In this document: piece by piece, positions 14,473-61,328 of the stretch
Layout: each line of letters starts with the position of its first letter
Position numbering within the stretch: the first letter of the stretch is position 1
DNA from: Candidatus Woesearchaeota archaeon
GTDB lineage: Archaea > Nanobdellota > Nanobdellia > SCGC-AAA011-G17 > PNOQ01
Reading direction: 5' to 3'
Assembly (NCBI GenBank): GCA_018663865.1
Contig: JABJPM010000025.1
Span: 9,024-73,023, forward strand
Length of the DNA: 64,000 nucleotides
The notes under the pieces: generated by a model
Database searches by the model: none
The model's input: only the letters and a program-made list of their open reading frames with translations
Told to the model about the DNA's origin: nothing
Program-made: the position numbers and the translations under genes

Positions 14473-15060
14473 CTAAACTTTCAAAATCTTCCCTTTATCT
14501 CCAGGATTAATTATTACTGTTTTCCCAACACTATCAATTTGATTGAAATTTTCTTCAATATGTCCGCAAATAACAAGCATTGGTTTTACCTCTTTAATTA
14601 ATTTCAATGCAGATTTACTTCCAACATGTCCTGCCCACTCAATATAATCTGTTTTCGTCCCATATATTGGAGCATGGGTAACAAAAATAACTTTTTTTCC
14701 CTTCGAACGTTTTTTTAAGGAAGGAATAATTTTTTCTAAATCCTTATATCTTTCTGAAAATCCGCCGTACCCATATCCAAAGAATAAGTAATCTCCAACG
14801 ACAATACTTTTTTTATGAAGGAATTTAACTTTTTTATTATTTTTTAATATAGAAAAATCCTCTCCCTCTTCGTGGTTTCCAGGGATGATCAATGTTGGTT
14901 TTTTGAACTTATTAAAATCCTTAATTAGTTTATTAAAATTTTTCCCAAAGTTAGTAAAATCTCCAGCGCAGACAACAATATCTGCCTTTTTTGCCTTGGC
15001 AATTAATCTACTATTTATTGCCCCATAAAAATGAGGATCCGTAAATGCTAATATATTCAT
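14473..15060 (-). CDS. Calcineurin-like metallophosphoesterase (YfcE/MJ0936-like).
   Basis: The DPH, GDFT, GNHE and VTHAPIYG motifs appear in order. 195 aa. Confidence 0.8.
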   Translation of the reverse strand: MNILAFTDPHFYGAINSRLIAKAKKADIVVCAGDFTNFGKNFNKLIKDFNKFKKPTLIIPGNHEEGEDFSILKNNKKVKFLHKKSIVVGDYLFFGYGYGGFSERYKDLEKIIPSLKKRSKGKKVIFVTHAPIYGTKTDYIEWAGHVGSKSALKLIKEVKPMLVICGHIEENFNQIDSVGKTVIINPGDKGKILKV

Positions 15061-15370
15061 AAAAAAAGTTAAATTTAAGGTTTTTTAAAGCTTATTATGC
15101 TTCCAAAAATCCTTGCATGAACCCAGAATCATTGGGATCGATGTCTCCATCCTCTTCAAGGCGGATTACACATTCGATTTCATAGAAATTTGGATCATCC
15201 ATTTTCACACCTTCAGGTGGCAAATTGCACCATTATGAATTAATTTCCAAAATTTCATTTCTAATTCTTCTTCAACAAAATCTTCCCATTGTAAATATTT
15301 AACCATTCAGCATCACCTCCATGACGTATTCAAATTATGTGAAAAATTGTTTATATACCTCACCCGCGAG

Positions 15371-15388
15371 TTTGGCAAGCTGTCAAGC
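15371..15388. repeat. Left copy of a perfect 18-bp inverted repeat, TTTGGCAAGCTGTCAAGC. It contains an internal CAAGC-N3-CAAGC direct repeat.
   Basis: It is the exact reverse complement of 17903-17920. It lies between a TATA-like box (TTTATATA at 15345) and the ATG at 15400. Confidence 0.85.
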
Positions 15389-15399
15389 TAAAAACCAAT

Positions 15400-15825
15400 A
15401 TGGATACCTTTATAAACAGACGATTTAGCCAAGAATTCATGGTAATGCCAAAAAGTAAAGGAAAAAAGAATAATCGTTCAAAGAAAAGTCAAACATTTGA
15501 AGAATATTCAGAAGGAAAAGATTTTTCCAAAAAAGGTTCAAGGAATTCAAAAAGTAGATCTTACGGTAGAGGAGACTCCAAAAGGGGTAATTCGGAAAGA
15601 AGAGATTCAAGAAGAAGAGATAATACTCGGATAGAGAAGACTACTGTTACATGCGATGATTGTAAGGAAAAATGCGAAGTGCCATTCAAACCAACATCTA
15701 ATAAACCAATCTTTTGTGATAATTGTTTCAAAAAGAACAAAGATCAAAAAGATAATAAACACATTAAGGAATTAGAATTAATTAATGAAAAATTAGATAA
15801 AATAATGGTTGCCTTAAAAATTTAG
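15400..15825 (+). CDS. Basic Arg/Ser-rich protein with a C-terminal C4 zinc ribbon. Putative nucleic-acid-binding protein.
   Basis: 141 aa. The middle is an RS/RD-type low-complexity stretch (SRNSKSRSYGRGDSKRGNSERRDSRRRD). The C-terminus is TCDDCKEKCEVPFKPTSNKPIFCDNCF (CxxC-x15-CxxC). Confidence 0.5.
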   Translation: MDTFINRRFSQEFMVMPKSKGKKNNRSKKSQTFEEYSEGKDFSKKGSRNSKSRSYGRGDSKRGNSERRDSRRRDNTRIEKTTVTCDDCKEKCEVPFKPTSNKPIFCDNCFKKNKDQKDNKHIKELELINEKLDKIMVALKI

Positions 15826-15870
15826 ATTTCTAATGGAAAAACATATAAATTAGAAATCTATAATTCTATC

Positions 15871-16437
15871 ATGAGTGATAGGAAATTAGTAAAGTTAGCA
15901 AAAGACTATTGTTACAATTATCACGAGGGTCAATTAAGGAAAGGAACCAAACTTCCTTATCATACCCATCCAATTGCAGTGGCAGAAATTTTAGACGAAT
16001 TTGGATACACAGATGCAACCACAAAATGCATAGCATTATTACATGATGTAATTGAGGATTCTCCAGTAATCACTGGTGAAATAAAGGAAAAATTTGGTTA
16101 TGAAATCGCAAACGGAGTTTATATTCTATCAAAAAATACAATCAATAAAGAGATAATAAAACAATTAGACAATAGTTCACAAATAGACATAAAAAAATTA
16201 TCCCCCGATCAAGTATACAAATTTAGATTATCTTTTGCAAGAAAAAAAGTAAAAAGAATAAAAATAGCAGATTTAATTCACAATACAAGAGATTTAAAAT
16301 CATTGAGTGACAGAGGGATTAAGAAAAAACTTACTAATGCAAAAGAATTTTACATCCCATTGGGAAAAAGAATTGCCCCGTTGATGATAAAAGAATTAGA
16401 AAAAAATATAGTGAAATATAAAAAACAACAAATTTAA
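15871..16437 (+). CDS. HD-domain phosphohydrolase of the RelA/SpoT type. Putative (p)ppGpp pyrophosphohydrolase (small alarmone hydrolase / Mesh1-like).
   Basis: YHTHPIAVAEIL...TKCIALLHDVIEDSPVITGEIKEKFG matches the Rel/Spo HD signature (HP..VA, LLHDvvEDt...I...FG). 188 aa. Confidence 0.7.
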   Translation: MSDRKLVKLAKDYCYNYHEGQLRKGTKLPYHTHPIAVAEILDEFGYTDATTKCIALLHDVIEDSPVITGEIKEKFGYEIANGVYILSKNTINKEIIKQLDNSSQIDIKKLSPDQVYKFRLSFARKKVKRIKIADLIHNTRDLKSLSDRGIKKKLTNAKEFYIPLGKRIAPLMIKELEKNIVKYKKQQI

Positions 16438-16464
16438 ATACAATTAATCAAATTCAATTTTATA

Positions 16465-16818
16465 ATGACAGATTTAATAGCATTTTTATCAACAGGAAAG
16501 GGAACATGGGGCCAAGTAAGTGCCTTAATTAATGCAGAGGGTTGGGATAAAGTTTATTTATTAACAAATGATTTTGGAAAAGAAAAATTCACTGCTGAAG
16601 AAAATACCGAATTAATAGTTGTAAATTCATCCGCCCCCGAAGGGGAATTGAGAGATGAGATTGCAGAAATTCTAAAAGAAAAAGTAAATGGTGAAATTGC
16701 AATAAATTTTGTTTCTGGAACGGGAAAAGAACACATGGCCCTAATTGCAGCACTAATGAAGTCCGGGGTAGGATTTAGATTCGTAGTGCAAACCGATGAA
16801 GGTACAAAAGAACTTTAG
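16465..16818 (+). CDS. Hypothetical small Rossmann-like protein. It may be a CARF/SLOG-like ligand-binding domain.
   Basis: 117 aa. The N-terminus LIAFLSTGKGTWGQV and the C-terminus INFVSGTGKEHMALIAAL resemble the GxS and TGGxK motifs of CARF-type domains, but the match is weak. Confidence 0.3.
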   Translation: MTDLIAFLSTGKGTWGQVSALINAEGWDKVYLLTNDFGKEKFTAEENTELIVVNSSAPEGELRDEIAEILKEKVNGEIAINFVSGTGKEHMALIAALMKSGVGFRFVVQTDEGTKEL

Positions 16819-16853
16819 ATAACTTTATATCTTTCTTTATTTTTATTAAAATC

Positions 16854-17900
16854 ATGAGTGGATTATTTGACAACATTTTACATGACAATGAGAGCTTATT
16901 CTTAGATGAAATTGCACTAGATTATGATTATATTCCGAAGCAAATACCCTATAGAGAAACCCAACAACAATTTATTGCAGAATGCATTTCACCTTTATTA
17001 CAAAATAAAACTGGAAGAAATTTATTCATCCAGGGAGCCCCAGGAATTGGAAAAACATTAGCCGCATTATATGTAAAAAGAGAGTTAGAAGAAAAAACTA
17101 GCGATGTAAAAACAATTTACATTAATTGTTGGAAAAAAGATTCAAGCTACAAAATTTTATTAGAGATTTGTAACCAAGTTGGATACAAATGGACACAGAA
17201 TAAACGAACAGATGAATTGATGGACATCGTTGCAAAAGAATTAAACAAAGGGACAGTAGTTTTATTTTTAGATGAAATCGACAAAGTAAGAGAAGTAGAT
17301 ATATTATATTCTTTTTGCGAGGATTTGCTAAAAAAATCATTAATTCTTATAGCAAATAATAAAGAATGGTTAAATCAATTGGATGATCGGGTAAAATCAA
17401 GGCTAATGCCCGAATTATTAGAGTTTAATGAATATAATGCGAAAGAGACCGAAGGAATTTTAAGGGAGCGAACAGATTATGCATTCGCAAAGGGAATCTG
17501 GGATCCGGATGCTTTGCAAGCAGTAATAAATAAAACAATTCAAATGGGTGATATTCGTTCAGGATTATTCATATTAAGGGAATCTGGAAATTGTGCAGAA
17601 GCAAAAGCATCTAGGAAAATAAATATCGAACACGCACATAAGGCGCTATCAAAATTAGAGGGATTCAAAATAAAAAATTCATTAGATTTTGGAGATGATG
17701 AGCAATCAATTTTGGACTTAGTAAGGGGAAATTCTGGAAAAACAGTAAAAGAATTGCATTCTCTTGTAGAAAAAAAGTTTTCATATCGAACATTTCATCG
17801 GAAAATAGATGAATTAAGAAAAAATAATATGTTGGATGTTTTAGAAGTTCCAGGGAAATCATCTATAGTAAATTATTCTAAAAAATTAACGGAATTTTAA
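16854..17900 (+). CDS. orc1: Orc1/Cdc6 family AAA+ initiator protein.
   Basis: The N-terminus FLDEIALDYDYIPKQIPYRETQ is present. Walker A is QGAPGIGKT and Walker B is LFLDEID. The sensor-2-like GDIRSGLFILRESGNCAEAK follows, with a C-terminal winged helix. 348 aa. Confidence 0.85.
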   Translation: MSGLFDNILHDNESLFLDEIALDYDYIPKQIPYRETQQQFIAECISPLLQNKTGRNLFIQGAPGIGKTLAALYVKRELEEKTSDVKTIYINCWKKDSSYKILLEICNQVGYKWTQNKRTDELMDIVAKELNKGTVVLFLDEIDKVREVDILYSFCEDLLKKSLILIANNKEWLNQLDDRVKSRLMPELLEFNEYNAKETEGILRERTDYAFAKGIWDPDALQAVINKTIQMGDIRSGLFILRESGNCAEAKASRKINIEHAHKALSKLEGFKIKNSLDFGDDEQSILDLVRGNSGKTVKELHSLVEKKFSYRTFHRKIDELRKNNMLDVLEVPGKSSIVNYSKKLTEF

Positions 17901-17902
17901 TT

Positions 17903-17920
17903 GCTTGACAGCTTGCCAAA
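17903..17920. repeat. Right copy of the 18-bp inverted repeat, GCTTGACAGCTTGCCAAA.
   Basis: It is the exact reverse complement of 15371-15388. It sits 3 nt after the orc1 stop and just upstream of the TATA-like box of the next gene. Confidence 0.85.
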
Positions 17921-17962
17921 CGCTAAGAAACAATTTATAAACATTGATTAATAATTTCTAGC

Positions 17963-18418
17963 ATGGCCAAAACAATTTCAAAAGATACCCCATTATCTGA
18001 GATAACGCTTAGGAGATATGAAAAACCTTCCGCGTGCTCGAAAAGGGATTTAACAAGAAAGGTCTGCCTTTCAATAGGATTGTTACAGCCAGGAGATTCA
18101 AGAGACATAATTGTAGATATTTTGCAAGTTTTGATGGAAAATAAAGAAGGCCAAGTATTCATGAATTCTGAAGAGATAAGGAGTAAAGTAATTTCTCATA
18201 GAAAAAAACAAAAACTTCCAATTAAGGGTGTAGCCCCCTCCAATGTCCGGAGACAATTAAAAAGATTAAGAGATATATATTTAGTTGAAACGATAAGAAA
18301 CGAATACAGGATTGCAGAATTTGAAGAATTGCATGTAATTTTCAAAAAACAAATAAAAGATTTCTATTTAAAGAATATCTTGGAAAGAGTAGAAGATTAT
18401 TTCAAGGAGATAAAATGA
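17963..18418 (+). CDS. Hypothetical protein, possibly a winged-helix DNA-binding protein.
   Basis: 151 aa with a basic, helix-rich composition and no diagnostic motif. It overlaps the downstream methyltransferase by 4 nt. Confidence 0.35.
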   Translation: MAKTISKDTPLSEITLRRYEKPSACSKRDLTRKVCLSIGLLQPGDSRDIIVDILQVLMENKEGQVFMNSEEIRSKVISHRKKQKLPIKGVAPSNVRRQLKRLRDIYLVETIRNEYRIAEFEELHVIFKKQIKDFYLKNILERVEDYFKEIK

Positions 18419-38580: not shown

Positions 38581-39777
38581 CTAAAAAAATTCACTAATCC
38601 TCTTTTGAGTATTAATTTCATTCAAAACTTTACTAATGTTTAAAATTTCAGAAATATTTTGTCCAAATTTTTTTTTAACAAATGATTCTAGATATTCTAT
38701 TGCCAACTTTTTATCTTCAAATTCAATAAAACCTCCATTAACAGATGTCCTAGTTGCTTCCCTGCAAACCCACACTCCCAATGGATATTTGTCCTCGGCA
38801 GTTATAAACCTTAATGCCAAAACGGATCCTTGGATTCCAAGCTTTTTCAATTTTTCAATTATTCCAAGTCGGCAAGCGTAATATCCTCCTGCGGTTTCAG
38901 ATGCATAATTTTTTCTTGAATCAAACTTCTCATAATCAGTAGCATAATATTTTCCATTTTTGCTCCACGGATTTTCCTTGAATGGGACCTCCATTTCAAA
39001 CAATTCAAAGTTCCATACGCCTGGAAAAAAAGCAATCAAATATTGGTTTCCCAAATTTCCCCCAAAATAAACACGCGTATGGTCTATGCAATTTTCAAAT
39101 TTAACATCTTTCAACATTTCTTTTCCGAGTGTATCATCTATGGCAGTAATGCTCCATCGGGTAGGGACTAGTTTTCTATTTTTTTTCAATCCAAGTAATC
39201 CTATGGATAAAATTTTGCTGAGGAAATTTTCATCAATGCCTCGATCATACAATTTCTTCAATCCCCCGACTGACTTCAAATCAATGTCCGAAATTGTTTT
39301 ATCCACAATTGTTTTTATTTTTGGATTTTCCGTTAACCGAATATTCTTTGCATTAGCATTATTACTTAATGGGTTCCCAATCCTATCTAATTTTAGTTTA
39401 TTAATTGGTTTATTTTTCAACTCAACTTCAATTTCGACAGGTTTATGTGCCATCCCAATTTCTTGAGATAAATTAATAAATTTATGATTAAATCCCTTGA
39501 TTTTAGTTTTGAATCGAGAATTGACCAATTTCGATCTCAATTTTAATATATCTTCATCTCCAAAATTCATTTTTATCCAATCTTTCGGGGAATCCAACAT
39601 ATGGGCATCTTTCATAGTTTTTACAGGACTCAAAACTCCAACATTCACATCTGGATACCCGTGCCTACCCACGAAAACAGAGGGCGGAGAGTTTCCAAAA
39701 AATTCATTTTTATTTAAATCTAAATTTTCAAAATTAAATTTTATTATTTCTCGTTGCCCATATCCACTCTTTTGCAT
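38581..39777 (-). CDS. Conserved hypothetical protein, possibly in the Nre (DUF650/DUF651, COG1602) family.
   Basis: 398 aa and soluble. The N-terminus PPSVFVGRHGYPDVNVG vaguely recalls archaeal Nre-like proteins. Low confidence. Confidence 0.3.
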   Translation of the reverse strand: MQKSGYGQREIIKFNFENLDLNKNEFFGNSPPSVFVGRHGYPDVNVGVLSPVKTMKDAHMLDSPKDWIKMNFGDEDILKLRSKLVNSRFKTKIKGFNHKFINLSQEIGMAHKPVEIEVELKNKPINKLKLDRIGNPLSNNANAKNIRLTENPKIKTIVDKTISDIDLKSVGGLKKLYDRGIDENFLSKILSIGLLGLKKNRKLVPTRWSITAIDDTLGKEMLKDVKFENCIDHTRVYFGGNLGNQYLIAFFPGVWNFELFEMEVPFKENPWSKNGKYYATDYEKFDSRKNYASETAGGYYACRLGIIEKLKKLGIQGSVLALRFITAEDKYPLGVWVCREATRTSVNGGFIEFEDKKLAIEYLESFVKKKFGQNISEILNISKVLNEINTQKRISEFF

Positions 39778-39871
39778 GAGTTAGTTAATGGTGCATTATT
39801 TATATATCTAATCTCGGTGTTTGGCAAGCGTAGAAACATTTATAAATAAAACATTGTCCTCAGAATCTACG

Positions 39872-60813: not shown

Positions 60814-61032
60814 TTAACAAGCCGATGTGCTATAGTGTAATTTTTTGATACCAACCAAAATTAACACGATTGCAAAAACTTGTGTAAGATTCAAATACCC
60901 GAACCATAAAATCAAACCTAATAATATTGATATTATGCCTCTAAATGCAAAAGCACCTTTGCCAGAATGACAACCTACTGCACAAGTATTACTTTCTTTT
61001 TTAACAACTTTTTTTCTTTTTTTAGCAACCAT
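60814..61032 (-). CDS. Small 2-transmembrane membrane protein with an N-terminal basic/Cys segment.
   Basis: 72 aa: MVAKKRKKVVKK...CAVGCHSGKGAFAFRGIISILLGLILWFGYLNLTQVFAIVLILVGIKKL. It lies upstream of dfx in the same orientation. Confidence 0.45.
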   Translation of the reverse strand: MVAKKRKKVVKKESNTCAVGCHSGKGAFAFRGIISILLGLILWFGYLNLTQVFAIVLILVGIKKLHYSTSAC

Positions 61033-61045
61033 TTTTCACCTCCGT

Positions 61046-61207
61046 TTATTTAGCAAAAATTCCCCAAAAGATTTTAGAAAATCCAGCTATGAACAATAGC
61101 AATGCAAATAGTTGTTCTAATGTCAATATCGCGCTCCATAATGCCCAGCCCAATATTAATGAAACTATTCCTGCAAAAATTAATCCAGACCTAGCCCTAG
61201 AACCCAT
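61046..61207 (-). CDS. Small 2-transmembrane membrane protein, a paralog of the adjacent 72-aa protein.
   Basis: Manual translation gives MGSRARSGLIFAGIVSLILGWALWSAILTLEQLFALLLFIAGFSKIFWGIFAK, 53 aa. It aligns with the previous protein as G-I-[IV]-S-[LI]-[IL]-L-G-x-x-L-W-...-L-x-L-x-Q-x-F-A. It is not in the ORF track because it is under 60 aa. Confidence 0.4.
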   Translation of the reverse strand: MGSRARSGLIFAGIVSLILGWALWSAILTLEQLFALLLFIAGFSKIFWGIFAK

Positions 61208-61328
61208 CCCTTTTTTCTTAACCATTAAATATCACCCTCCTATCCTAATTTTTATTTTTTCTATTTAAATACTTTTTCCTAGAATATATATAATCAATTG
61301 GGACAATCTTTAAAATAAGATCAAACAT

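What the first reader, a model, noticed from the sequence alone, without database searches (positions are those of the whole stretch)
15371..17920. Perfect 18-bp inverted repeats bracketing a 2.5-kb four-gene segment that contains orc1/cdc6
TTTGGCAAGCTGTCAAGC at 15371-15388 is the exact reverse complement of 17903-17920. Each copy is about 50% GC in an otherwise ~30% GC window and contains an internal CAAGC-N3-CAAGC direct repeat. By my rough estimate a perfect 18-mer inverted pair is very unlikely to arise by chance in 64 kb. The enclosed segment carries an RS-rich zinc-ribbon protein, a RelA/SpoT-type HD hydrolase, a small CARF-like protein and Orc1/Cdc6. I see three possibilities. The repeats may be origin-recognition-box-like initiator binding sites flanking the orc1 locus, since archaeal origins sit next to orc1 and use inverted ORBs. 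They may be terminal inverted repeats of a non-autonomous mobile cassette, since I found no transposase or integrase inside. Or they may be paired operator sites for a local regulator. I found no target-site duplication immediately flanking the repeats.
Basis: seen in the sequence. Interest (0 to 1): 0.65.

Follow-up and report, generated by a model that had tools for sequence, protein, structure and literature searches.

The report
Shared promoter element, not origin
The two inverted 18-mers around orc1 are real, but they are two copies of a conserved promoter-upstream motif that in related DPANN archaea also precedes DNA-repair genes such as Lhr and NreA, so they most likely mark a small undescribed regulon rather than a replication origin or a mobile cassette.

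Summary
TTTGGCAAGCTGTCAAGC (15371-15388) is the exact reverse complement of 17903-17920. The perfect match is 19 nt, and 0.01 matches are expected by chance.

The bracketing of orc1 looks incidental. Read in its own orientation, each copy (GCTTGACA-GCTTGCCAAAC, a tandem 8-bp repeat) lies 11 nt upstream of a TATA box that points outward. One promoter serves two tiny ORFs and a phosphoesterase. The other serves a 151-aa winged-helix protein.

A third copy in the window (39829-19, proximal half only) has the same register upstream of the repair gene NreA. In related Woesearchaeota/Nanoarchaeota contigs the motif keeps the same offset and orientation. There it precedes Lhr(-MPE), NreA, and PIN, LAGLIDADG and 81-aa genes, with no orc1 nearby. 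Loci chosen by gene alone confirmed it for NreA (2/3) and Lhr (2/3).

The enclosed gene content differs between relatives, while the motif stays with the outward genes. There is no ORB core, no repeat cluster or unwinding element, no target-site duplication and no skew switch.

Best reading: an upstream binding site for an unidentified transcription factor, probably an activator, that controls a repair-enriched regulon. This is a new member of a known kind and moderately interesting.

The parts
15370..15388 (-). Site 1: tandem motif GCTTGACA-GCTTGCCAAAC, read on the minus strand. It lies in a divergent promoter region.
   Evidence: Exact match. Orthologous copies in L007/L089, L110, L050 and L111.
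15350..15357 (-). TATA box (TATATAAA) of the outward promoter of site 1, 12 nt after the motif.
   Evidence: Aligns in register with site 2. Same offset in 13 of 14 low-GC contexts.
15205..15306 (-). Small ORF 1 (33 aa), preceded by the Shine-Dalgarno-like GGAGGTGA. First gene behind site 1.
   Evidence: Conserved as a separate ORF in L007, L110, L050 and L111.
15095..15202 (-). Small ORF 2 (35 aa), in a different frame. Its ATG lies 2 nt after the stop of ORF 1.
14473..15060 (-). 195-aa calcineurin-type metallophosphoesterase, last gene of the putative operon behind site 1.
   Evidence: Pfam Metallophos 65 bits. Only weakly YfcE-like in NCBIfam. Syntenic in L007, L110, L111 and L050.
17903..17921 (+). 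Site 2: the same tandem motif, read on the plus strand, starting 2 nt after the orc1 stop codon.
   Evidence: Orthologous copies in L007/L089 and L110.
17934..17941 (+). TATA box (TTTATAAA) of the outward promoter of site 2. The ATG lies 29 nt downstream, so the mRNA is probably leaderless.
17963..18418 (+). p151: a 151-aa protein with a predicted winged helix-turn-helix and a long C-terminal helix. Target of site 2 and one candidate for the binding factor.
   Evidence: About 4,900 homologs in Woesearchaeota/Nanoarchaeota, some labelled ArsR regulator by JGI. AlphaFold2 pLDDT 79.5. Nearest folds are Fur/MarR/TrmBL2/Sso10a DNA-binding domains, none significant.
39819..39829 (-). Site 3: single core GCTTGCCAAAC (proximal unit only).
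   Evidence: Conserved upstream of NreA in L115 and L116.
39799..39806 (-). TATA box (TATATAAA) of the NreA promoter, in the same register as sites 1 and 2.
38581..39777 (-). NreA DNA-repair protein gene, target of site 3. Its ATG lies 52 nt from the start of the core.
   Evidence: Pfam Nre_N 256.7 bits and Nre_C 81.6 bits.
15409..15416 (+). Inward TATA box (TTTATAAA) on the other side of site 1, 20 nt from the motif. It serves the Zn-ribbon gene, which probably starts at ATG 15439.
   Evidence: Read from the sequence. The 30-nt spacing from TATA box to ATG matches the other leaderless promoters.
15400..17900 (+). Enclosed genes, which I do not count as part of the element: Zn-ribbon, HD_4 hydrolase, p117 and Orc1/Cdc6.
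   Evidence: The content differs in relatives: L007 has p117 + Orc1 + a 78-aa ORF; L110 has p117 + Orc1 + 260-aa and 75-aa ORFs.

Best explanation
The two 18-mers are two copies of a conserved promoter-upstream element. The unit is an 11-nt core, GCTTGCCAA(A/C)C, that ends 11 nt before the TATA box. That puts it at about -52 to -42 from the transcription start, just upstream of where the TFB-recognition element should lie. At strong sites the core is preceded by a second 8-bp unit (GCTTGMCA), which makes the tandem 19-mer. I infer that a sequence-specific transcription factor binds it, one protomer per 8-bp unit, head to tail. Because the site lies upstream of BRE/TATA and does not overlap them, the factor most likely helps recruit TBP/TFB, that is, it activates. 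In this window the element serves three promoters: (1) two small ORFs plus a phosphoesterase, (2) the 151-aa winged-helix protein, (3) NreA. The first two genes happen to be transcribed away from each other on either side of the orc1 segment, and that is why the two copies look like inverted repeats bracketing it. In related genomes the same element drives the Lhr-MPE helicase/nuclease operon, NreA, and PIN, LAGLIDADG and 81-aa genes, so the regulon is enriched in DNA-repair functions. Shown: the motif, its fixed register and orientation relative to TATA boxes, its conservation at orthologous promoters while the spacers drift, and its presence at unlinked promoters. Inferred: protein binding, activation rather than repression, the DNA-damage theme, and the identity of the factor, which is unknown (p151 and Orc1 are candidates).
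For: An ungapped alignment of site 1 (minus strand) with site 2 (plus strand) gives 19 identical nt, a divergent 11-12 nt spacer, then T.TATAAACA in the same register.

Exact-motif scans of public collections were done without regard to genes. In low-GC DPANN-like contigs, 13 of 14 distinct contexts have a TATA box at the fixed downstream offset, against 2 of 14 at the mirrored upstream position. In higher-GC contigs the figure is 3 of 75.

The genes behind the motif are Lhr helicase (L003, L009, L021/L033), p151, the small ORFs plus phosphoesterase, a PIN protein, an HTH-LAGLIDADG protein and an 81-aa protein.

One genome (CAYFOF01) has at least three copies on two contigs.

The window has a third copy upstream of NreA.

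Tests on loci chosen by protein only: NreA orthologs at 87% and 65% identity keep GCTTGCCAA(A/C)C at the same register while the spacer changes, and the 61% ortholog has only a degenerate version. Lhr orthologs at 86% and 71% identity keep it, and the 64% ortholog does not.

A core-plus-TATA scan over 17 DPANN loci found 17 hits against 1.05 in shuffles. In four unrelated leaderless genes the ATG lies 52-53 nt from the core start.

Per-position information is high only in the motif and the TATA box.

Repair context: Lhr passes NF010338 (1169 bits against 849). The Lhr-linked phosphoesterase passes TIGR00024, with PdeM as second hit. The Lhr-MPE cluster is a known repair module (PMC7826289; PMC8301817). 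NreA is a repair factor in Haloferax (PMC7776575).
Against: No binding or expression data exist, and the factor is unidentified.

Most instances were found by exact-match searching, so the motif's invariance in those is built in. Only the gene-first loci and the TATA register are independent evidence.

Only two of about seven target families (Lhr-MPE and NreA) have an established repair role. The window's own phosphoesterase is a different paralog and is not PdeM-like.

p151 promoters in more distant relatives lack the motif, and some relatives (L112, L113, L120) show no copy at all.

In L009, L021 and L118 the motif promoter lies about 70 nt upstream of a second TATA box that sits closer to Lhr. 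In L015 it faces the 3' end of a convergent gene, which I interpret as an orphan promoter left after loss of Lhr-MPE.

Activation rather than repression is inferred from position alone.
Confidence: 0.75

Rival explanations
1. Origin-recognition boxes. The two copies are Orc1-binding sites flanking the initiator gene and mark a replication origin, as in Thermococcales, where cdc6/orc1 lies between two ORB clusters.
For: The copies flank the only Orc1/Cdc6 gene in the window, and they also do so in L007 and L110. In Pyrococcus, cdc6/orc1 lies between two ORB clusters (PMC1904270). The raw cumulative GC skew has a broad minimum at 9-16 kb.
Against: The motif has neither of the conserved ORB core elements 'TTCC' and 'GAA' on either strand (one search compared). 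There is only one tandem site per gap, in gaps of 62 and about 115 bp, with no other repeats and no AT-rich unwinding element. Archaeal origins are defined as a DUE flanked by several ORBs (PMC5333045). The same motif sits upstream of Lhr, NreA and other genes with no Orc1 gene in the locus. In L111 only one copy remains near orc1, and in L112 none. The raw skew follows gene orientation. Once that is removed, the strand component has the same sign on both sides of the locus (-0.11 and -0.07). The fixed register with TATA boxes is unexplained by an origin function.
Confidence: 0.05
2. The element is a transcription-factor site as in the best explanation, and the factor is the neighbouring Orc1/Cdc6 protein acting as a damage-response regulator, like Orc1-2 of Sulfolobales.
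For: In Saccharolobus, Orc1-2 binds a promoter motif (ANTTTC) and activates DNA-damage-response genes (PMC6061795). Here orc1 lies between two sites, its operon shares the divergent promoter region of site 1, and the regulon includes repair genes.
Against: The motif bears no resemblance to ANTTTC or to ORBs. Linkage between orc1 and the motif is limited to one clade. This is the only Orc1 seen in the window and fits the general initiator family model. In Sulfolobales the regulator is a dedicated extra paralog. Nothing here tests binding.
Confidence: 0.08
3. Local autoregulation. The 151-aa winged-helix protein downstream of site 2 is the factor. It binds its own promoter and the other copies.
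For: p151 is predicted to have a winged helix-turn-helix and a long helix that could mediate dimerisation. Some sources label family members as ArsR-type regulators, and its taxonomic range (Woesearchaeota/Nanoarchaeota) matches that of the motif. The motif lies in its promoter in three lineages.
Against: Fold matches are not significant (best E = 0.04, TM about 0.4), and no Pfam or NCBIfam model reaches its threshold. p151 promoters in L111-L114 have no motif although L111 keeps the copy at the small-ORF promoter. The very high conservation and the position next to the L1/L10/L12 ribosomal genes would also suit a general chromatin or housekeeping protein.
Confidence: 0.15
4. Terminal inverted repeats of a non-autonomous mobile cassette, or recombination sites of an invertible segment that carries orc1.
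For: A perfect 19-nt inverted pair spans 2.5 kb. The enclosed content differs between relatives. The p117-orc1 module has the opposite orientation in L111, L112 and L114.
Against: There is no target-site duplication and no transposase, integrase or invertase inside. Elsewhere the motif occurs as single copies at promoters. The repeats stay with the outward genes while the inside changes. The Zn-ribbon plus HD indel lies inside the pair, not with it. Between the two copies only the motif and the TATA box are conserved and the spacer differs, which indicates selection on function rather than a recent duplication. Genomes with the inverted module have one copy or none. There are no promoter-type copies in 2.9 million viral contigs. 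The one contig that seemed to show the segment in a different context (L047) is a chimeric assembly.
Confidence: 0.02
5. An extended core-promoter element read by a general factor, for example an alternative TFB/TBP paralog, rather than by a dedicated regulator.
For: The strict distance to the TATA box and the single orientation are what a core-promoter extension would show.
Against: It is present at only 3 of about 73 genes in the window, it is GC-rich, and it is doubled at some sites. That fits a specific regulator better. No TFB or TBP paralog was examined.
Confidence: 0.05

Closest known systems
GvpE-responsive upstream activator sequence of haloarchaeal gas-vesicle promoters (PA/PD)
   Same: Two 8-nt portions lie just upstream of BRE, their distance to BRE is critical, and one element sits between two divergent promoters (PMC2241852). 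Here two 8-bp units lie at a fixed 11 nt from the TATA box, and site 1 sits between divergent TATA boxes.
   Different: The sequence is unrelated. The units here abut with no 4-nt spacer. The proximal unit alone is kept at some promoters (NreA, and Lhr in L119). The binding factor is unknown. The organisms are DPANN, not haloarchaea. No mutational data exist.
Sulfolobales DNA-damage-response element (5'-ANTTTC-3') bound by Orc1-2
   Same: A short promoter motif shared by a set of damage-response genes in an archaeon, with an Orc1/Cdc6 family protein involved (PMC6061795). Here a promoter motif is shared by repair genes and two copies lie next to orc1.
   Different: The sequence and length differ. 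The Sulfolobus motif lies 23-55 bp upstream of the start codon of most identified DDR genes, whereas this motif sits at a fixed position upstream of BRE. The targets there are pili, DNA import and tfb3 rather than Lhr and NreA. No evidence here shows that Orc1 binds or that the genes respond to damage.
Archaeal origin recognition boxes (ORB / mini-ORB)
   Same: Short repeats in inverted orientation near an orc1/cdc6 gene. Thermococcales have ORB clusters on both sides of cdc6 (PMC1904270).
   Different: No TTCC/GAA core, no clusters, no AT-rich unwinding element, not linked to orc1 in most genomes, and locked to TATA boxes.
Bacterial and archaeal Lhr-Core/MPE DNA-repair gene cluster
   Same: In L003, L009, L118 and L119 the motif precedes an Lhr helicase gene followed by a TIGR00024/PdeM-related phosphoesterase. 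That gene pair is already described, including in DPANN (PMC7826289; PMC8301817).
   Different: This comparison concerns the cargo and not the element. No shared promoter motif has been described for the cluster in the papers I could search. The window itself has no Lhr gene, and its phosphoesterase is another paralog.

Membership tests
Archaeal transcription-factor binding site / upstream activator sequence | Fixed distance and orientation relative to BRE/TATA | tested here: met
   13 of 14 low-GC contexts have a TATA box at the same downstream offset, against 2 of 14 at the mirrored position. The ATG lies 52-53 nt from the core start in four unrelated leaderless genes.
Archaeal transcription-factor binding site / upstream activator sequence | Conserved at orthologous promoters while the flanking and spacer sequence drifts | tested here: met
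   NreA promoters in the window, L115 and L116; small-ORF promoters in five lineages; Lhr promoters in L003, L119 and L118.
Archaeal transcription-factor binding site / upstream activator sequence | Present at several unlinked promoters of one genome (a regulon) | tested here: met
   Three sites in the window (15.4, 17.9 and 39.8 kb). Three sites on two contigs of assembly CAYFOF01.
Archaeal transcription-factor binding site / upstream activator sequence | Specific protein binding and an effect on transcription | not testable with these tools
   Needs EMSA or footprinting and reporter or in vitro transcription assays.
Origin recognition box (ORB / mini-ORB) | Sequence related to the ORB core (conserved TTCC and GAA motifs) | tested here: not met
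   Neither strand of GCTTGACAGCTTGCCAAAC contains TTCC or GAA (one search compared with PMC1904270). ORB sequences do vary between lineages, so this alone is not decisive.
Origin recognition box (ORB / mini-ORB) | Several repeats flanking an AT-rich unwinding element in one non-coding region | tested here: not met
   Each gap (about 115 bp and 62 bp) holds one tandem site and promoters only, with no further repeats. Definition from PMC5333045.
Origin recognition box (ORB / mini-ORB) | Consistent linkage to the initiator gene across related genomes | tested here: not met
   No Orc1 gene in the L003, L009, L015, L021, L027, L062, L076, L086 or L101 loci. One copy or none near orc1 in L111-L114.
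Origin recognition box (ORB / mini-ORB) | Switch of replication-strand compositional skew at the site | tested here: inconclusive
   The GC3 skew component has the same sign left (-0.11) and right (-0.07) of the locus. However, only 5 and 3 genes are in the minority classes, and only 64 kb is available.
Origin recognition box (ORB / mini-ORB) | Binding by Orc1/Cdc6 and origin activity | not testable with these tools
   Needs EMSA, ChIP or marker-frequency analysis.
Transposon or MITE-like cassette with terminal inverted repeats | Target-site duplication directly outside the repeats | tested here: not met
   The outside flanks are ...GCGAG and CGCTA....
Transposon or MITE-like cassette with terminal inverted repeats | The whole unit is present or absent, or found in other contexts, with both repeats travelling with the cargo | tested here: not met
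   The repeats stay next to the same outward genes while the cargo differs. Elsewhere copies are single. The apparent alternative context (L047) is a chimeric contig.
Transposon or MITE-like cassette with terminal inverted repeats | A transposase or integrase in the element, or many paired copies in the genome | tested here: not met
   None among the four enclosed genes. No other pair in the window.
Invertible DNA segment (site-specific inversion) | A recombinase gene in or beside the segment, and both orientations flanked by the same repeats | tested here: not met
   No recombinase was found. Genomes with the inverted p117-orc1 module carry one motif copy or none.

The most novel reading that the evidence does not exclude
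The motif defines a transcriptional DNA-repair regulon (Lhr-MPE, NreA, nucleases and small unknown proteins) shared across Woesearchaeota and Nanoarchaeota. That would be the first such network proposed for DPANN archaea and one of very few in any archaeon outside Sulfolobales. Its regulator would be encoded at this locus: either the Orc1/Cdc6 protein acting like Sulfolobus Orc1-2, or the universally conserved 151-aa winged-helix protein. In that case the divergent site 1 would couple expression of the orc1 operon to the repair response.
Probability: 0.2. Interest if true: 0.7.

Novelty: new member of a known kind. Interest (0 to 1): 0.45.

Why it matters
Almost nothing is known about how archaea outside Sulfolobales control DNA-repair genes, and nothing at all for the uncultivated, genome-reduced DPANN lineages. 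This work gives a sharply defined 11-19 nt element at a fixed promoter position, shared by Lhr-MPE, NreA and a few unknown genes across many genomes. That provides a concrete handle. The 19-mer can be used as bait to find the factor. Its target list predicts new repair-linked genes: the two tiny ORFs, p151 and the 81-aa protein. It also shows that small DPANN genomes keep dedicated regulons. For the scan itself, the lesson is that a perfect inverted repeat around a conspicuous gene can simply be two outward-facing promoters sharing one regulator site.

Tried and rejected
- **Raw GC skew as an origin marker:** it follows gene orientation. I replaced it with a comparison of coding-strand GC3 skew.
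- **L047 as evidence for mobility:** the four enclosed genes are 100% identical to the window while the flanking genes are diverged. The contig proved to be a chimeric, low-coverage assembly that switches to another strain on one side and to high-GC sequence on the other.
- **The window's 195-aa phosphoesterase as the MPE/PdeM nuclease:** not supported. It is only weakly YfcE-like and shows no cross-hit with the Lhr-linked paralog.
- **The two small ORFs as one frameshifted gene:** rejected. They are separate ORFs in different frames in every relative. The 66-aa ORF behind the L114 variant is unrelated.
- **Sequence searches of p151 and the 81-aa protein against solved structures:** nothing significant.
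- **Rfam:** only tRNAs, none near the sites.
- **Sigma-70 promoter and terminator scan:** uninformative for an archaeon.
- **The gap at 60.9-61.4 kb as an alternative origin:** it holds two small membrane-protein genes.
- **Viral contig scan:** no promoter-type copies.
- **Literature searches for the motif or a DPANN repair regulon:** nothing relevant, only unrelated primers.
- **One locus (P0128):** returned no DNA.

Full report
**1. The observation**

The window is about 31% GC and gene-dense, with leaderless-type TATA promoters. It belongs to a DPANN archaeon: its closest public relatives are Woesearchaeota assemblies.

TTTGGCAAGCTGTCAAGC lies at 15371-15388, and its exact reverse complement lies at 17903-17920. 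No other copy exists in the window even with three mismatches allowed, against 0.01 expected by chance. The perfect match extends to 19 nt.

The enclosed genes are:
- a Zn-ribbon protein;
- an HD_4 hydrolase;
- a 117-aa protein with no significant family match ('CARF-like' is not supported, E = 0.21);
- an Orc1/Cdc6 protein.

There is no target-site duplication.

**2.

I read site 1 on the minus strand and site 2 on the plus strand and aligned them without gaps. Both give GCTTGACAGCTTGCCAAAC, then 11-12 unrelated nucleotides, then T.TATAAACA in the same register. So each copy sits at the same distance upstream of a TATA box, and the two promoters point outward.

- Site 2 drives the 151-aa gene at 17963, whose ATG lies 29 nt after the TATA box.
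- Site 1 drives two tiny ORFs of 33 and 35 aa, the first preceded by GGAGGTGA, followed by a 195-aa metallophosphoesterase.
- Site 1 also lies 20 nt from an inward TATA box that serves the Zn-ribbon gene, so it sits in a divergent promoter region.

The motif itself is a tandem 8-bp direct repeat, GCTTGMCA-GCTTGCCA, followed by AAC. In relatives the first unit is often GCTTGCCA, which makes the duplication perfect.

**3. The same element elsewhere**

An exact scan of one genome per species gave nine hits, three of them in DPANN archaea. A metagenome scan gave 100 stretches.

Sorted by composition:
- 13 of 14 distinct contexts in low-GC contigs carry a TATA box at the fixed downstream offset;
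- only 2 of 14 carry one at the mirrored upstream position;
- only 3 of 75 higher-GC (bacterial, mostly coding) contexts carry one downstream.

The genes behind the motif are:
- an Lhr-type helicase in three lineages (L003; L009; L021/L033);
- p151;
- the small ORFs plus phosphoesterase;
- a PIN-domain protein;
- an HTH-LAGLIDADG protein;
- an 81-aa protein.

None of these other loci contains an Orc1 gene. L009 and L110 are two contigs of one assembly. That genome therefore has at least three copies: at the small-ORF operon, at p151, and at Lhr on another contig.

**4. A third site in the window, and two prediction tests**

A relaxed scan found GCTTGCCAAAC at 39829-39819 on the minus strand. 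It has the same spacer length and a TATATAAA box, and the ATG of a gene lies 52 nt from the core start. That gene is NreA (Nre_N 257 bits, Nre_C 82 bits). The distal unit is absent there, so the 11-nt proximal core is the minimal element.

I then fetched loci chosen only by protein similarity.

NreA orthologs:
- 87% identity: core kept at the same register, spacer changed;
- 65% identity: core kept at the same register, spacer changed;
- 61% identity: only a degenerate CTTGTCAAG at that position.

Lhr orthologs:
- 86% identity: the full tandem is kept;
- 71% identity: the single core is kept;
- 64% identity: no motif, and a LAGLIDADG gene is fused upstream.

Across 17 DPANN loci, core plus TATA occurs 17 times against about 1 in shuffled sequence. 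Every hit is one of the promoters above. An anchored alignment of 21 promoters shows information only in the motif and the TATA box.

**5. The enclosed segment is not a unit**

Relatives at about 81% DNA identity (L007/L089) have the two copies around p117 + Orc1 + a 78-aa ORF, with no Zn-ribbon or HD gene. L110 has p117 + Orc1 + 260-aa and 75-aa ORFs. In L111, L112 and L114 the p117-Orc1 pair is inverted relative to p151, and those genomes have one motif copy or none.

The motif stays with the outward genes, most consistently with the small-ORF promoter. The p151 copy is limited to the window's clade. A contig that seemed to place the segment in another context (L047) is chimeric.

**6. Against an origin**

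- Archaeal origins are an AT-rich unwinding element flanked by several ORBs (PMC5333045). The conserved ORB core motifs are TTCC and GAA (PMC1904270).
- This motif has neither core motif.
- The two gaps are 62 and about 115 bp and hold only promoters. No further repeats are present.
- The raw GC skew tracks gene orientation. With coding-strand effects removed, the strand component has the same sign on both sides of the locus. Gene numbers are small, so I treat this as weak evidence.
- The strongest argument is that the motif is shared with unlinked repair-gene promoters and keeps a strict register with TATA boxes.

**7. What it most likely does**

The core lies at about -52 to -42 from the start site and the distal unit reaches about -60. 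That is directly upstream of the expected BRE. Archaeal activators work from this position. In the best-studied parallel, the GvpE-responsive element consists of two 8-nt portions next to BRE, is sensitive to distance, and is shared by divergent promoters (PMC2241852).

I therefore propose a sequence-specific factor that binds head to tail on the 8-bp units and promotes TBP/TFB recruitment. This step is inferred, not shown.

The targets with known roles point to DNA repair:
- Lhr passes NF010338 (1169 bits against a cut-off of 849).
- In L003, L009, L118 and L119, Lhr is followed by a phosphoesterase that passes TIGR00024 and has the bacterial damage-response endonuclease PdeM as its second hit.
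- The Lhr-MPE cluster is a described repair module in bacteria and archaea, including DPANN (PMC7826289; PMC8301817).
- NreA acts in mitomycin C damage repair in Haloferax (PMC7776575).
- L015 looks like the Lhr-MPE locus after loss of both genes, with an orphan motif promoter facing the neighbouring alkylation-repair gene.

The other targets (the small ORFs, p151, the 81-aa protein, and the PIN and LAGLIDADG proteins) have unknown or only loosely related functions, so the repair theme is probable rather than established.

**8. Who binds it**

The factor is unknown. There are two local candidates.

- **p151.** It has a confident predicted winged helix-turn-helix and a long C-terminal helix (pLDDT 79.5). 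Its nearest folds are Fur/MarR/TrmBL2/Sso10a DNA-binding domains, but none is significant. It is nearly universal in the same taxa as the motif. However, its own promoter carries the motif in only one clade.
- **Orc1.** There is a precedent in Sulfolobus Orc1-2, which binds ANTTTC in damage-response promoters (PMC6061795). Nothing here links Orc1 to the motif beyond proximity in one clade.

**9. Novelty and verdict**

I found no description of this motif or of a DPANN repair regulon in the searchable literature. The kind of element is well known; this instance and its regulon appear to be new.

The finding as written, repeats bracketing orc1 as an origin or a cassette, is not supported. The operator-site alternative is partly right. 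Interest is moderate: the element is ordinary in kind, but it gives a specific, testable entry point into gene regulation in DPANN archaea.

Noticed in passing
window 15306-15205 (-) and 15202-15095 (-): Two tiny ORFs (33 and 35 aa; the first has a GGAGGTGA ribosome-binding site) are conserved as two separate ORFs in different frames in the window, L007/L089, L110, L050 and L111. They sit directly behind the most widely conserved motif copy and have no family match.
   Followed up: partly
window 16465-17900; L110 7465-8897; L111 8100-9892; L112 8481-9915; L114 6482-7931: The 117-aa protein and Orc1/Cdc6 form a conserved gene pair in every Woesearchaeota locus examined. The pair is inverted relative to the neighbouring p151 gene in L111, L112 and L114. 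p117 has no significant family hit, so its link to the initiator is unexplained.
   Followed up: partly
L009 4390-4296 (-); L021; L118 5860-6000: In three Lhr loci the motif promoter lies about 70 nt upstream of a second TATA box that serves Lhr. Between them is CACCTC followed by a T-run, and in L118 a hairpin (AGGTGgaatttaCACCT) plus T6. This could be a short terminated leader, an attenuator or a small RNA containing an anti-Shine-Dalgarno-like sequence.
   Followed up: no
L015 2740-2815: An orphan motif-plus-TATA promoter faces the 3' end of a convergent DNA-alkylation-repair gene. Comparison with L118 and L119 suggests the Lhr-MPE operon was deleted here.
   Followed up: partly
window 15399-16421: The Zn-ribbon and HD_4 hydrolase genes are an insertion or deletion relative to L089, and its boundary lies about 10 nt from site 1. 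Other gene-content differences between these relatives occur at 12.9-14.5 kb and 18.9-20.3 kb.
   Followed up: partly
window 15400-15441: The Zn-ribbon gene probably starts at ATG 15439 (TATA box 15409-16, 30 nt upstream, leaderless geometry) rather than at the first ATG at 15400.
   Followed up: no
L047 (marine metagenome contig OREN01010808): This low-coverage contig is identical to the window from 15053 to 18342. It then switches to another strain's phosphoesterase on one side, and on the other to a p151 fusion followed by high-GC sequence. It is a chimeric assembly that could mislead presence/absence analyses.
   Followed up: yes
L003 2095-6074; L120 5007-6026: The Lhr gene of L003 carries an intein with a LAGLIDADG domain (1326 aa). 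In L120 a free-standing LAGLIDADG gene overlaps the Lhr start, and in L027 an HTH-LAGLIDADG gene has the motif promoter. LAGLIDADG genes recur around this regulon.
   Followed up: no
window 60814-61225 (-): An apparent 300-bp non-coding gap with T-rich direct repeats actually holds two paralogous small membrane-protein genes (72 and 59 aa). It is not an origin candidate.
   Followed up: yes
L123 6068-6083 (viral contig, GC 0.28): This is the only viral-collection hit in low-GC DNA with a nearby TATA box. GCTTGCCAGCTTGCCA is followed by TATATAAT after 18 nt, which is a different offset from the cellular promoters.
   Followed up: no
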